From a virus (taxonomy: Duplodnaviria; Heunggongvirae; Uroviricota; Caudoviricetes): a DNA stretch of 43,600 nucleotides. The notes beneath the pieces are model-generated. The model saw nothing but the letters and a program-made list of their open reading frames with translations, ran no database searches and was not told the DNA's origin. Of this stretch, positions 4,430 through 16,600 are shown one piece after another. The DNA lies in the IMG/VR virus record IMGVR_UViG_3300033143_002710. One strand, 5' to 3'. Within the stretch, counting starts at the first letter, position 1. Every line of letters starts with the position of its first letter. The position numbers were made by a program, and so were the translations under genes.

Positions 4430-4861
4430 TTAGTAGGTTTCTTTAATCTCTCTACCTAGCTGAGCGTCAGCGTCGTACAGGTCATGCTTGATGTGGTGCT
4501 GGTTGACGGCCTGCTCCTTGGACTCTGCGAATTGCCAGACCCAGGCCGCTACTCCATCGCTATTTACAGCCTTCTTTGCTTCATGGTCAGACTCGGAAAA
4601 CGCTTCAATAGTGCCTTCGTATGTCTCTACGGTTAGAAACCGTTTCATGTGTGTAGTCGAGTCCTTGGTGACATCAGCAACGATATCGCTAAGTAGGTCA
4701 TGCAGATTGCTGTGGTCTGCCCTATTGAATTGTCTGGCGACCTCTGCGATTTGCTCCGACGTTATAACGTCGCCGCCAGCCTGGAGATGGGCTATATCTC
4801 TTATTTCTTCTGCCGTATAGCCAATGTGGGCAGGATAGTCCTTGCGAAAGTCCTCACTCAT
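4430..4861 (-). CDS. hypothetical protein (143 aa)
   Basis: Leader motif and promoter P7. Confidence 0.75.
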   Translation of the reverse strand: MSEDFRKDYPAHIGYTAEEIRDIAHLQAGGDVITSEQIAEVARQFNRADHSNLHDLLSDIVADVTKDSTTHMKRFLTVETYEGTIEAFSESDHEAKKAVNSDGVAAWVWQFAESKEQAVNQHHIKHDLYDADAQLGREIKETY

Positions 4862-4894
4862 GATTGGTGCCTCTTTGTGATTGTTTGACGATCC

Positions 4895-16139: not shown

Positions 16140-16565
16140 TTGTCCCCGGCTTTTGGTGACAAGGCAGCTTCCAATTGGAAAGCTGGCCGGGGCCTCGAAG
16201 GATTAAGCTGCCATCGCTAGAGGCTGGAACGAATCCATACCTACAAACTCTGACATATCTGCTTCTTCCTCGACAAACTGTTCGTTTGCTTTTACTTTAG
16301 AGGCGGTTACGCCGCTTACGCGAGTCGTCTTCCGTGATTCCGTATACCATGTCGAAACCGATCACCCCCATCAAAAACTGTCTGTCCGGATTTCGGGTCA
16401 ATTGGCAGCGACCCTATCCTGTTGCTGCTTCTATTGCTTCAACCTTGCCAAAGATGAAACTCAAAGTGACTAACTCGACAAACAGCTTATGGTGGAGGTG
16501 GCGGGAATCGAACCCGCGTCCACAATACCTACTAACACAGCCTCAAACGACCATAAGTTTCCAAC
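16140..16565 (-). ncRNA. ssrA: Circularly permuted (two-piece) tmRNA gene
   Basis: Acceptor piece ends GGAC-GCGGG-TTCGATT-CCCGC-CACCTCC-A-CCA at 16490. Coding piece starts GGGGGTG-ATCGGTTTCGAC at 16369, downstream of that CCA. 7-bp acceptor stem with G3.U70; helix-2 pairings CACGG/CTGTG and AGACGAC/GTCGTTT; tag ORF 16289-16203. Outer ends approximate. Confidence 0.93.
16203..16289 (-). other. tmRNA tag reading frame ANEQFVEEEADMSEFVGMDSFQPLAMAA*
   Basis: Resume codon GCA preceded by GTAAAA (UA at -5/-4); starts AN, ends LAMAA-TAA like SsrA degrons. Confidence 0.88.
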
Positions 16566-16571
16566 GAATTC

Positions 16572-16600
16572 ATTCTTACATATTGCGAGTGAGTTTACAA
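16572..16600 (-). promoter_or_regulatory. Candidate tmRNA promoter
   Basis: TTGTAA-N17-AAGAAT with TG at -15/-14; start near 16565 gives a ~76-nt acceptor piece. Confidence 0.5.

What the first reader, a model, noticed from the sequence alone, without database searches (positions are those of the whole stretch)
16203..16289. Unusually long, acidic 28-residue tmRNA tag
SEEN: ANEQFVEEEADMSEFVGMDSFQPLAMAA. KNOWN: E. coli encodes ANDENYALAA (10 aa) and Caulobacter ANDNFAEEFAVAA; the C-terminal AA is the ClpX degron and the N-terminal part binds SspB. INFERENCE: both ends are kept but an acidic, Met-rich spacer of about 17 residues is inserted. This could change adaptor (SspB) dependence or protease choice (ClpXP/ClpAP/Lon), letting the phage retune the fate of rescued proteins.
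Basis: partly seen in the sequence, partly recalled or inferred. Interest (0 to 1): 0.75.

Follow-up and report, generated by a model that had tools for sequence, protein, structure and literature searches.

The report
Phage two-piece tmRNA, long acidic tag
An uncultivated ~108-kb phage carries its own ribosome-rescue RNA (tmRNA), and the tail it adds to unfinished proteins is about 2.5 times the usual length, very acidic and conserved in related phages, so it is real and under selection, but similar long acidic tags are already on record in other phages and its function is untested.

Summary
ARAGORN and Rfam (RF04321, 110 bits against a cut-off of 47) call a circularly permuted, two-piece tmRNA on the minus strand at about 16140-16552. 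Its tag frame is exactly 16289-16203: 28 codons plus TAA.

The frame is not chance. Nine related metagenomic phage contigs carry the same tmRNA at the same position. Together with the window they give seven distinct tags of 28-30 residues. All indels are multiples of three. dN/dS is below 1 in 20 of 21 pairs. Differences by codon position are 127:51:222. There is no Lys or Arg, and net charge is -6 or -7.

The RNA helices are 96.7% paired, with 12 pairs showing compensatory change.

The tag ends resemble short alphaproteobacterial tags (ANDNF...AP-x-A-x-AA).

"Unusually long" needs qualifying. Published tags span 8-35 residues. Some small-genome Alphaproteobacteria I sampled have 22-33-residue tags, but those are not acidic. 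Mycobacteriophage Bxz1 has a 25-residue tag with charge -7. This scan has already noted several other phage tmRNAs with long acidic tags on other DNA.

I call it a new variant of a known kind, the first two-piece case I am aware of. The proposed effect on adaptor or protease choice is plausible but untested.

The parts
16490..16552 (-). Acceptor piece of the two-piece tmRNA: 3' strands of helix P2, T-arm, 3' acceptor strand CACCUCC (16500-16494), discriminator A (16493), encoded CCA (16492-16490)
   Evidence: Rfam RF04321 alignment. P2 and acceptor pairs counted on 5 homologues. The acceptor stem keeps the G3.U pair in all of them.
16370..16489 (-). Intervening segment between acceptor and coding pieces, presumably removed during processing; length and sequence vary between homologues
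   Evidence: Treated as an insertion in the Rfam alignment. Poorly conserved, with large indels, in alignments A1/A2.
16301..16369 (-). 5' part of the coding piece: 5' acceptor strand GGGGGUG (16369-16363), 5' strands of P2, and the PK1-region hairpin GCGG/CCGC (16315-16303)
   Evidence: The hairpin has 2 of 4 pairs with compensatory change. P2a has 2 of 5.
16290..16300 (-). Conserved single-stranded leader AAAGUAA-NN before the resume codon, with U at -5 (16294) and A at -4 (16293)
   Evidence: Invariant AAAGTAA in 7 homologues. It matches the position of U85/A86 in E. coli tmRNA, which set the reading frame (PMC2481249).
16203..16289 (-). Tag reading frame: resume codon GCA (16289-16287), 28 codons, stop TAA (16205-16203)
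16144..16197 (-). Pseudoknot PK2 after the tag: S1 CGAGG (16197-16193) with CCUUG (16164-16160); S2 CCCCGGC (16192-16186) with GCCGGGG (16150-16144); nested hairpin 16185-16165
   Evidence: My own structure, counted on alignment A2. S1 and S2 are 100% paired and each has one compensatory pair. The hairpin has 5 of 6 pairs with compensatory change.

Best explanation
The stretch is the tag template of a functional two-piece (circularly permuted) tmRNA carried by the phage.

Shown here:
- The RNA has every sequence and structure element of a working tmRNA.
- It sits among the replication and nucleotide-metabolism genes of a DnaE-encoding phage of about 108 kb.
- It is kept at the same locus in a clade of related uncultivated phages.
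- The 28-30-codon tag frame evolves like a translated sequence under purifying selection.

Inferred mechanism:
1. In infected cells the precursor is processed into two pieces.
2. The host AlaRS charges it with alanine, and host SmpB and EF-Tu deliver it to stalled ribosomes. No smpB is present in the window.
3. Translation resumes at GCA 16289.
4. The nascent chain receives Ala plus 28 residues.

The invariant C-terminal AMAA would act as a ClpX-type degron. The conserved N-terminal AAN-E-x-F would act as an alphaproteobacterial-type SspB adaptor site. The conserved acidic, Met/Phe-rich 16-18-residue insert (a D-M/L-S motif, an invariant Gly, an F-Q/D motif) most likely adds a further binding element or spacer. 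That element would change how, or by which factor, rescued chains are handled. Which factor it is remains unknown.
For: The tmRNA is real:
- ARAGORN calls it, and RF04321 scores 110.4 bits against a cut-off of 47.
- It has G3.U, discriminator A and CCA.
- Forty-nine pairs are 96.7% paired across 5 homologues, with 12 pairs changed on both sides. None of 500 shuffles reaches this, and slid controls give 36-54% paired.

It is phage-borne:
- Flanking genes hit phage families: DnaE-type polymerase, SbcCD, UvsX-like, RNR, CobS. DnaE is 41% identical to Pseudomonas and Rhizobium phages.
- L035 is syntenic over 16 kb, with RNR 81% identical at the protein level.

The tag is conserved:
- Tags of 28-30 aa occur in L035, L036, L037/L038, L039/L040, L250 and L251/L252.
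- dN/dS is below 1 in 20 of 21 pairs. Differences by codon position are 127:51:222.
- The invariant Gly uses 4 different codons, and all indels are in-frame.
- The resume context AAAGUAA-NN-GCAAACGAA is invariant and matches the E. coli U85/A86 rule.

The ends resemble alphaproteobacterial tags, including one ending PMAMAA.

The composition is unusual: net charge is -6 or -7, against -4 to +8 in 64 other distinct tags. Only Bxz1, at -7, is comparable.
Against: - There are no expression, processing or tagging data, and the host is unknown.
- No smpB, clp, lon or sspB gene is in the window, so any link to a protease or adaptor is inference only.
- The closest pair (window against L036) has dN/dS 1.9, though on only 9 differences.
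- PK1 could not be resolved as a true pseudoknot.
- The consensus scan found no sigma-70-type promoter.
- In E. coli, ribosome release rather than the tag is what matters for viability and for phage growth (PMC8012679; PMC2481249). A tag-specific function is therefore not required for the gene to be useful.
Confidence: 0.55

Rival explanations
1. The tag is translated and selected, but the insert redirects rescued chains away from the normal SspB/ClpXP route. It might hand them to another protease such as Lon. It might make them poor substrates that clog or titrate host proteases. Or it might add a non-degradative function, an acidic tail that inactivates or relocates the tagged proteins.
For: The composition is unlike all 64 other tags compared. 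Long Mollicutes tags are read by Lon, not ClpXP (PMC9382460). Independent phage lineages also carry long acidic tags: Bxz1, plus unverified earlier notes of this scan. That pattern suggests a phage-specific use.
Against: The C-terminal AMAA and the N-terminal AN-E-x-F are the most conserved parts. That fits retained ClpX and adaptor recognition. No phage protease or adaptor gene is nearby. No amphipathic-helix signal was found in the insert.
Confidence: 0.25
2. The phage needs only the ribosome-rescue activity. The long tag is a tolerated expansion with no specific function, kept open merely so that translation terminates properly.
For: Tag identity is dispensable for viability and for phage plating in E. 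coli (PMC8012679; PMC2481249). The middle of the tag is the most variable part.
Against: dN/dS of 0.06-0.68 in 20 of 21 pairs. Third-position changes dominate. Length stays at 28-30 residues across phages whose proteins are only 45-80% identical. Internal Gly, Phe and D-M/L-S positions are conserved.
Confidence: 0.12
3. It is not a phage gene product at all. It would be a host ssrA fragment at a prophage attachment site, or an ordinary small protein gene miscalled as a tag.
For: tmRNA genes are common integration sites (PMC4383910, listed). Gene callers did call ORFs of 56-76 aa ending at the tag stop in L036 and L039/L040.
Against: The gene is complete (both pieces) and lies inside the replication module. 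No integrase is in the window. It is syntenic in six further phage contigs and shows RNA covariation. The upstream in-frame stretch has no conserved start codon or upstream Ala codon.
Confidence: 0.03

Closest known systems
Two-piece (circularly permuted) tmRNA of Alphaproteobacteria, e.g. Caulobacter (Keiler, Shapiro and Williams 2000; Rfam RF01849/RF04321)
   Same: Gene order is acceptor piece, intervening segment, coding piece. The coding piece has a PK1 region, the tag and PK2 only, as described for two-piece tmRNAs (PMC3985003). The tag ends are similar (AN-D/E-x-F at the start, A-x-AA at the end).
   Different: It is phage-borne. The tag is 28-30 aa, against a median of 12 in my alphaproteobacterial sample, and its net charge is -6 or -7. 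The clade-specific Rfam models are at or below threshold: RF01850 scores 66 bits against 84 for the window, and RF01849 scores 50.3 against 50 for L251. nhmmer scores against 50 alphaproteobacterial tmRNAs are below 20 bits.
Phage-borne permuted tmRNAs with short tags (OM43 phage Melnitz and pelagiphages, PMC9004378; Stenotrophomonas phage Marzo, Acinetobacter phage BUCT628, Alcaligenes phage QDWS595; IMG/VR contigs L010, L004)
   Same: These are two-piece tmRNA genes inside lytic-type phage genomes. L010 and L004 are the nearest relatives outside the family by profile score (88 and 78 bits). L010 is flanked by PhoH, nuclease and cell-wall hydrolase genes.
   Different: Their tags are 10-15 residues with charge -1 to -3. 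Only the window's clade carries the insert.
tmRNA of mycobacteriophage Bxz1 and other cluster C phages (tmRNA Website; PMC4131195)
   Same: It is phage-encoded, with a long tag (25 aa, L238:1596-1673) of net charge -7, no Lys or Arg, and acidic/aromatic runs.
   Different: It is a one-piece, actinobacterial-type tmRNA sitting in a tRNA array. The tag ends in ALV, not AMAA. There is no sequence similarity to the tag studied here.
Long ssrA tags of Mollicutes (Mesoplasma florum) read by Lon, and engineered DAS+4 tags (PMC9382460)
   Same: They are precedents that tag length, and the spacing between the adaptor site and the ClpX site, change protease or adaptor dependence.
   Different: These are bacterial or synthetic tags, are not acidic, and end differently (NYAFA; ADAS). 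Nothing equivalent has been tested for this tag.

Membership tests
tmRNA, permuted form (Rfam RF04321) | Score at or above the curated gathering threshold | tested here: met
   110.4 bits against 47. Homologues score 95-118 bits.
tmRNA, permuted form (Rfam RF04321) | Alanine-tRNA-like domain: acceptor stem with G3.U70, discriminator A, CCA, T-arm | tested here: met
   GGGGGUG/CACCUCC has a U-G pair at the third position in all 5 sequences, followed by A and CCA. The T-arm GCGGG/CCCGC has a UUCGAUU loop.
tmRNA, permuted form (Rfam RF04321) | Acceptor piece encoded upstream of the coding piece | tested here: met
   ARAGORN reports 'tmRNA*'. CCA lies at 16492-16490, upstream of G1 at 16369 on the minus strand.
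tmRNA, permuted form (Rfam RF04321) | Tag frame beginning at an Ala resume codon with the conserved upstream U/A, and ending in hydrophobic-Ala-Ala-stop | tested here: met
   GCA is preceded by U(-5)A(-4) and is invariant in 7 homologues. All tags end AMAA-stop. The upstream rule comes from PMC2481249.
tmRNA, permuted form (Rfam RF04321) | Pseudoknots flanking the tag (PK1 before, PK2 after) | tested here: inconclusive
   PK2 is supported by covariation in both stems. For PK1, only a 4-bp hairpin with 2 compensatory pairs could be defined.
tmRNA, permuted form (Rfam RF04321) | Expression, processing into two pieces, alanylation, SmpB-dependent tagging | not testable with these tools
   There are no transcript or proteome data. 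No SmpB family hit was found among the window ORFs scanned.
Betaproteobacterial two-piece tmRNA (RF01850) | Score at or above the gathering threshold (84 bits) | tested here: not met
   The window scores 66.4 bits and homologues 67-83. Genuine members score 169-296 bits.
Alphaproteobacterial two-piece tmRNA (RF01849) | Score at or above the gathering threshold (50 bits) | tested here: inconclusive
   It was reported only for L251, at 50.3 bits. For the window it lost the clan competition to RF01850, so its score was not shown.
ClpXP/SspB-directed ssrA degradation tag | C-terminal Ala-Ala-COOH preceded by a hydrophobic residue (ClpX site) | tested here: met
   AMAA is invariant. An AMAA ending also occurs in bacterial tags in my sample.
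ClpXP/SspB-directed ssrA degradation tag | N-terminal adaptor (SspB) motif AAND-x-x-Y, or the alpha-type AANDNF | tested here: inconclusive
   The motif here is (A)ANE-x-F, with Glu in place of Asp. It is conserved in all 7 tags. Binding was not tested, and the details of the motif rest on my own knowledge.
ClpXP/SspB-directed ssrA degradation tag | Tagged proteins are degraded by ClpXP, enhanced by SspB | not testable with these tools
   Needs experiments, and the host is unknown.

The most novel reading that the evidence does not exclude
Long, strongly acidic tags would be a convergent, phage-specific adaptation of tmRNA. Independent phage lineages would each have expanded a short host-type degron into a 25-40-residue acidic module: this two-piece family, the one-piece Bxz1 group, and the crAss-like, T4-like and soil phages noted earlier in this scan. 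Phages would then use trans-translation to attach a functional peptide that host tmRNAs do not attach, for example to route, neutralise or titrate proteins during infection.
Probability: 0.3. Interest if true: 0.7.

Novelty: new variant of a known kind. Interest (0 to 1): 0.45.

Why it matters
tmRNA tags are the textbook bacterial degron, yet no phage tmRNA tag has been studied functionally. This one is kept at 28-30 residues and under purifying selection across a clade of phages. It retains host-like ends around an acidic insert. That shows the peptide matters to the phage, not only ribosome release.

Together with Bxz1 and the other long-tag phage tmRNAs seen in this scan, it makes a concrete question testable: do phages reprogramme the fate of rescued nascent chains? 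It may also supply new orthogonal degradation tags for synthetic biology. As a single instance it is an incremental addition to a known kind.

Tried and rejected
Searches for relatives that found nothing:
- IMG/VR scans with two family-specific tmRNA patterns gave 0 hits.
- The 144-aa neighbour and the RNR protein gave no relatives in IMG/VR.
- The 82-aa neighbour found only itself in the protein search.

More distant relatives without the gene:
- Phages whose exonuclease is 45-49% identical, four of them complete genomes, have no permuted tmRNA.
- L253, a 105-kb relative, has none at the locus.

Attempts to find a bacterial donor or host:
- The P2/T-arm pattern gave 0 hits in 185,579 species genomes.
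Most lie in Oscillospiraceae, and ARAGORN calls none of them a tmRNA. This search is inconclusive.
- BLAST of the tmRNA against 301 Alphaproteobacteria matched only the T-arm.
- The NCBI MAG holding L251 is not held here, and neither is the window's genome.

Other tests:
- Sub-typing as alpha or beta by Rfam was ambiguous.
- An amphipathic-helix test of the insert did no better than shuffles.
- The consensus promoter scan found none. A TTGTAA-17-AAGAAT match at 16600-16572 is only suggestive.
- ARAGORN's longer tag for L036 (five extra residues) was rejected, because the upstream Ala codon is not conserved in L035 and L037.
- Lessner et al. 2007, on the alphaproteobacterial SspB, is not held.
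- Complex prediction was not used. The host adaptor and protease are unknown, and the window's tag is under 30 residues.

Genomes G050 and G336 are flagged unpublished.

Full report
**Observation**

ARAGORN finds a single RNA gene in the window. It is a permuted tmRNA on the minus strand at 16112-16582, and its tag is letter for letter the 28 residues reported. Rfam's permuted-tmRNA model RF04321 matches 16552-16203 at 110.4 bits against a gathering score of 47. It aligns from the first helix of the acceptor piece to the TAA stop.

Reading the strand gives these positions:
- Encoded CCA at 16492-16490.
- An intervening segment of about 120 nt.
- The 5' end of the coding piece (GGGGGUG) at 16369.
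- The resume codon GCA at 16289-16287.
- The stop at 16205-16203.

The finding's coordinates are therefore exact.

**Context**

The window is phage DNA. Its large ORFs hit phage families for a DnaE-type polymerase, SbcC/SbcD, a UvsX-like recombinase, ribonucleotide reductase and a CobS-like ATPase. The polymerase is about 41% identical to those of Pseudomonas phages (nickie, ZY21) and Rhizobium phages (RHEph10 and others) of 110-120 kb.

No whole genome is held. The window's own proteins are recorded on a contig of 107,600 bases. No integrase, SmpB, Clp, Lon or SspB family was found among the ORFs scanned.

**Relatives**

Homologues of two neighbouring proteins led to nine metagenomic contigs that carry a permuted tmRNA at the same position: L035, L036, L037, L038, L039, L040, L250, L251 and L252.

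L035 is syntenic with the window over 16 kb, with protein identities of 45-81%. L251 lies on a 109-kb contig.

The tag frames are at:

| Locus | Tag frame |
|---|---|
| L035 | 8856-8948 |
| L036 | 2475-2561 |
| L037 | 1609-1698 |
| L039 | 845-934 |
| L250 | 4790-4879 |
| L251 | 4729-4821 |

More distant relatives lack the gene. These are four complete 100-112-kb genomes whose exonuclease is 45-49% identical and the 105-kb contig L253. The tmRNA is therefore an accessory gene of one clade.

**Is the frame translated?**

With the window, there are seven distinct tags of 28, 28, 29, 29, 29, 30 and 30 residues. The evidence for translation is as follows:
- All length differences are whole codons.
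- The sequence GCAAACGAA at the resume site and the leader AAAGUAA before it are invariant.
- Every tag ends AMAA-stop.
- Nei-Gojobori dN/dS is below 1 in 20 of 21 pairs (0.06-0.68). The exception is window against L036, with only 9 differences.
- Summed differences fall 127:51:222 on codon positions 1, 2 and 3.
- The invariant Gly uses four codons, and the conserved Ala before the Met uses three.
- The +1 frame has stops in every homologue and the +2 frame in most.

ARAGORN's longer call for L036 uses an upstream Ala codon that is not conserved, so I rejected it. U at -5 and A at -4 match the positions of U85/A86, which set the frame in E. coli (PMC2481249).

None of them is met.

**Is the RNA intact?**

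I wrote a structure for the family and counted it on five sequences. It comprises three P2 helices joining the two pieces, the T-arm, the acceptor stem, a PK1-region hairpin, and a pseudoknot PK2 with a nested hairpin after the tag.
- 96.7% of cells pair, against 36-54% when the partners are slid.
- Twelve pairs change on both sides.
- None of 500 shuffles reaches the observed values.
- One T-arm column was mis-set by me and explains the only all-unpaired pair.
- The acceptor stem keeps G3.U in all sequences.

A coding piece with only PK1 and PK2 around the tag is the published layout of two-piece tmRNAs (PMC3985003).

**Which lineage?**

The clade-specific Rfam models are at or below threshold. 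The beta model gives 66 bits for the window (cut-off 84), whereas genuine betaproteobacterial members give 169-296 bits. The alpha model gives 50.3 bits (cut-off 50) for L251 only.

A profile of the family scores below 20 bits on 50 alphaproteobacterial tmRNAs. It scores 88 and 78 bits on two IMG/VR contigs, L010 and L004, whose tags are 14-15 residues long. L010 is flanked by PhoH, nuclease and cell-wall hydrolase genes.

Cultured phages of Stenotrophomonas, Acinetobacter and Alcaligenes also carry permuted tmRNAs, with 10-14-residue tags. The permuted form therefore does not identify the host. The nearest relatives are other phage-borne genes with short tags. This fits, but does not prove, an expansion within a phage lineage.

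**How unusual is the tag?**

Reviews give a range of 8-35 residues (PMC8012679), and the tmRNA database gives 10 as the commonest length (PMC11915505).

In my samples:
- Twenty-nine alphaproteobacterial tags from the best-scoring genomes are 10-20 residues, most often 12.
- Eighteen tags from the genomes with the longest Rfam matches include seven of 22-33 residues, all from genomes of 0.8-2 Mb.

Length alone is therefore inside the natural range. The charge is not. The family has net charge -6 or -7 and no Lys or Arg. The 64 other distinct tags compared run from -4 to +8. The only equal is mycobacteriophage Bxz1, a one-piece tmRNA with a 25-residue tag of charge -7. Bxz1 has been listed on the tmRNA Website since at least 2014 (PMC4131195).

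Earlier notes of this scan describe further phage tmRNAs with long, often acidic, lineage-conserved tags of 21-39 residues, in crAss-like, T4-like and soil phages. I did not check these. I found no paper in the held library that discusses the pattern.

**Anatomy of the tag**

Conserved features:
- A-N-E at positions 1-3.
- F-V-E-(D/E) after one or two variable residues.
- D-(M/L)-S in six of the seven tags. L035 has V-M-P at these positions.
- A hydrophobic pair followed by an invariant Gly.
- F-(Q/D) near the end.
- A-M-A-A at the C-terminus.

The ends match short alphaproteobacterial tags of the form ANDNF-AP-x-A-x-AA. One Sulfitobacter MAG tag ends PMAMAA, identical to the last six residues of the tags in L036 and L039. 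The insert shows no amphipathic-helix signal.

**Mechanism**

Shown: this is a structurally intact, phage-borne tmRNA whose long tag frame is under purifying selection.

Inferred:
- The host charges the RNA and delivers it to stalled ribosomes.
- Tagging starts at 16289.
- AMAA serves as a ClpX-type degron.
- The N-terminal motif serves as an adaptor site.
- The insert acts as an extra binding element or spacer.

Two precedents show that tag length and spacing can change adaptor or protease dependence (PMC9382460). The engineered DAS+4 tag has four extra residues and is degraded effectively by ClpXP when SspB is induced. The long Mollicutes tags are read by Lon.

None of this has been tested for any phage tag. 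In E. coli, ribosome release rather than tag identity is what matters for growth and for phage plating (PMC8012679, PMC2481249). A neutral-spacer reading therefore cannot be excluded, although the selection pattern argues against it.

**Verdict**

This is a new variant (two-piece, alpha-like ends) of something already on record: phage tmRNAs with long acidic tags. The same theme has been seen before in this scan on other DNA. Interest is moderate.

Noticed in passing
window 15387-15477 (minus strand); L035:9821-9939, L037:2344-2464, L039:1262-1380, L250:5194-5312, L251:5323-5443: The structured RNA element flagged by another finding (an anti-Shine-Dalgarno loop) lies 0.2-0.9 kb downstream of the tmRNA in all five family contigs that extend far enough. 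blastn does not detect it in L253, the relative that also lacks the tmRNA. The two RNAs may form one translation-directed module.
   Followed up: partly
L254 (Stenotrophomonas phage Marzo), L255 (Acinetobacter phage BUCT628), L256 (Alcaligenes phage QDWS595): ARAGORN calls permuted (two-piece) tmRNAs in cultured phages of Stenotrophomonas, Acinetobacter and Alcaligenes. BUCT628 and QDWS595 have no tmRNA annotation at these sites.
   Followed up: partly
L036:2331-2561, L039:764-934, L040:506-679: Metagenome gene callers annotated protein genes of 56-76 aa that run through the tmRNA coding piece and end at the tag stop codon. These are miscalls caused by the long open tag frame.
   Followed up: yes
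window, ORFs among 120-43577 (minus strand): Pfam hits among the window's other ORFs include a sigma-70 region 2 protein, an RNA ligase, gp32-like SSB, a dATP/dGTP diphosphohydrolase N-domain, Nmad5 and a CobT-type VWA protein. This suggests phage-directed transcription and possible nucleotide or DNA modification.
   Followed up: no
L043-L162 (genome contigs): A frame ending ...APSNTGV-x-x-FQP-x-ALAA-stop recurs in about a hundred Oscillospiraceae and other Clostridia genomes. ARAGORN does not call it a tmRNA. It is probably an alternative frame of a conserved gene or RNA.
   Followed up: no
L224, L225, L232, L233, L234, L235, L222 (small-genome Alphaproteobacteria): ARAGORN predicts tags of 22-33 residues, Asn/Lys/Arg-rich, in permuted tmRNAs of alphaproteobacterial genomes of 0.8-2 Mb. 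The resume codons were not verified.
   Followed up: no
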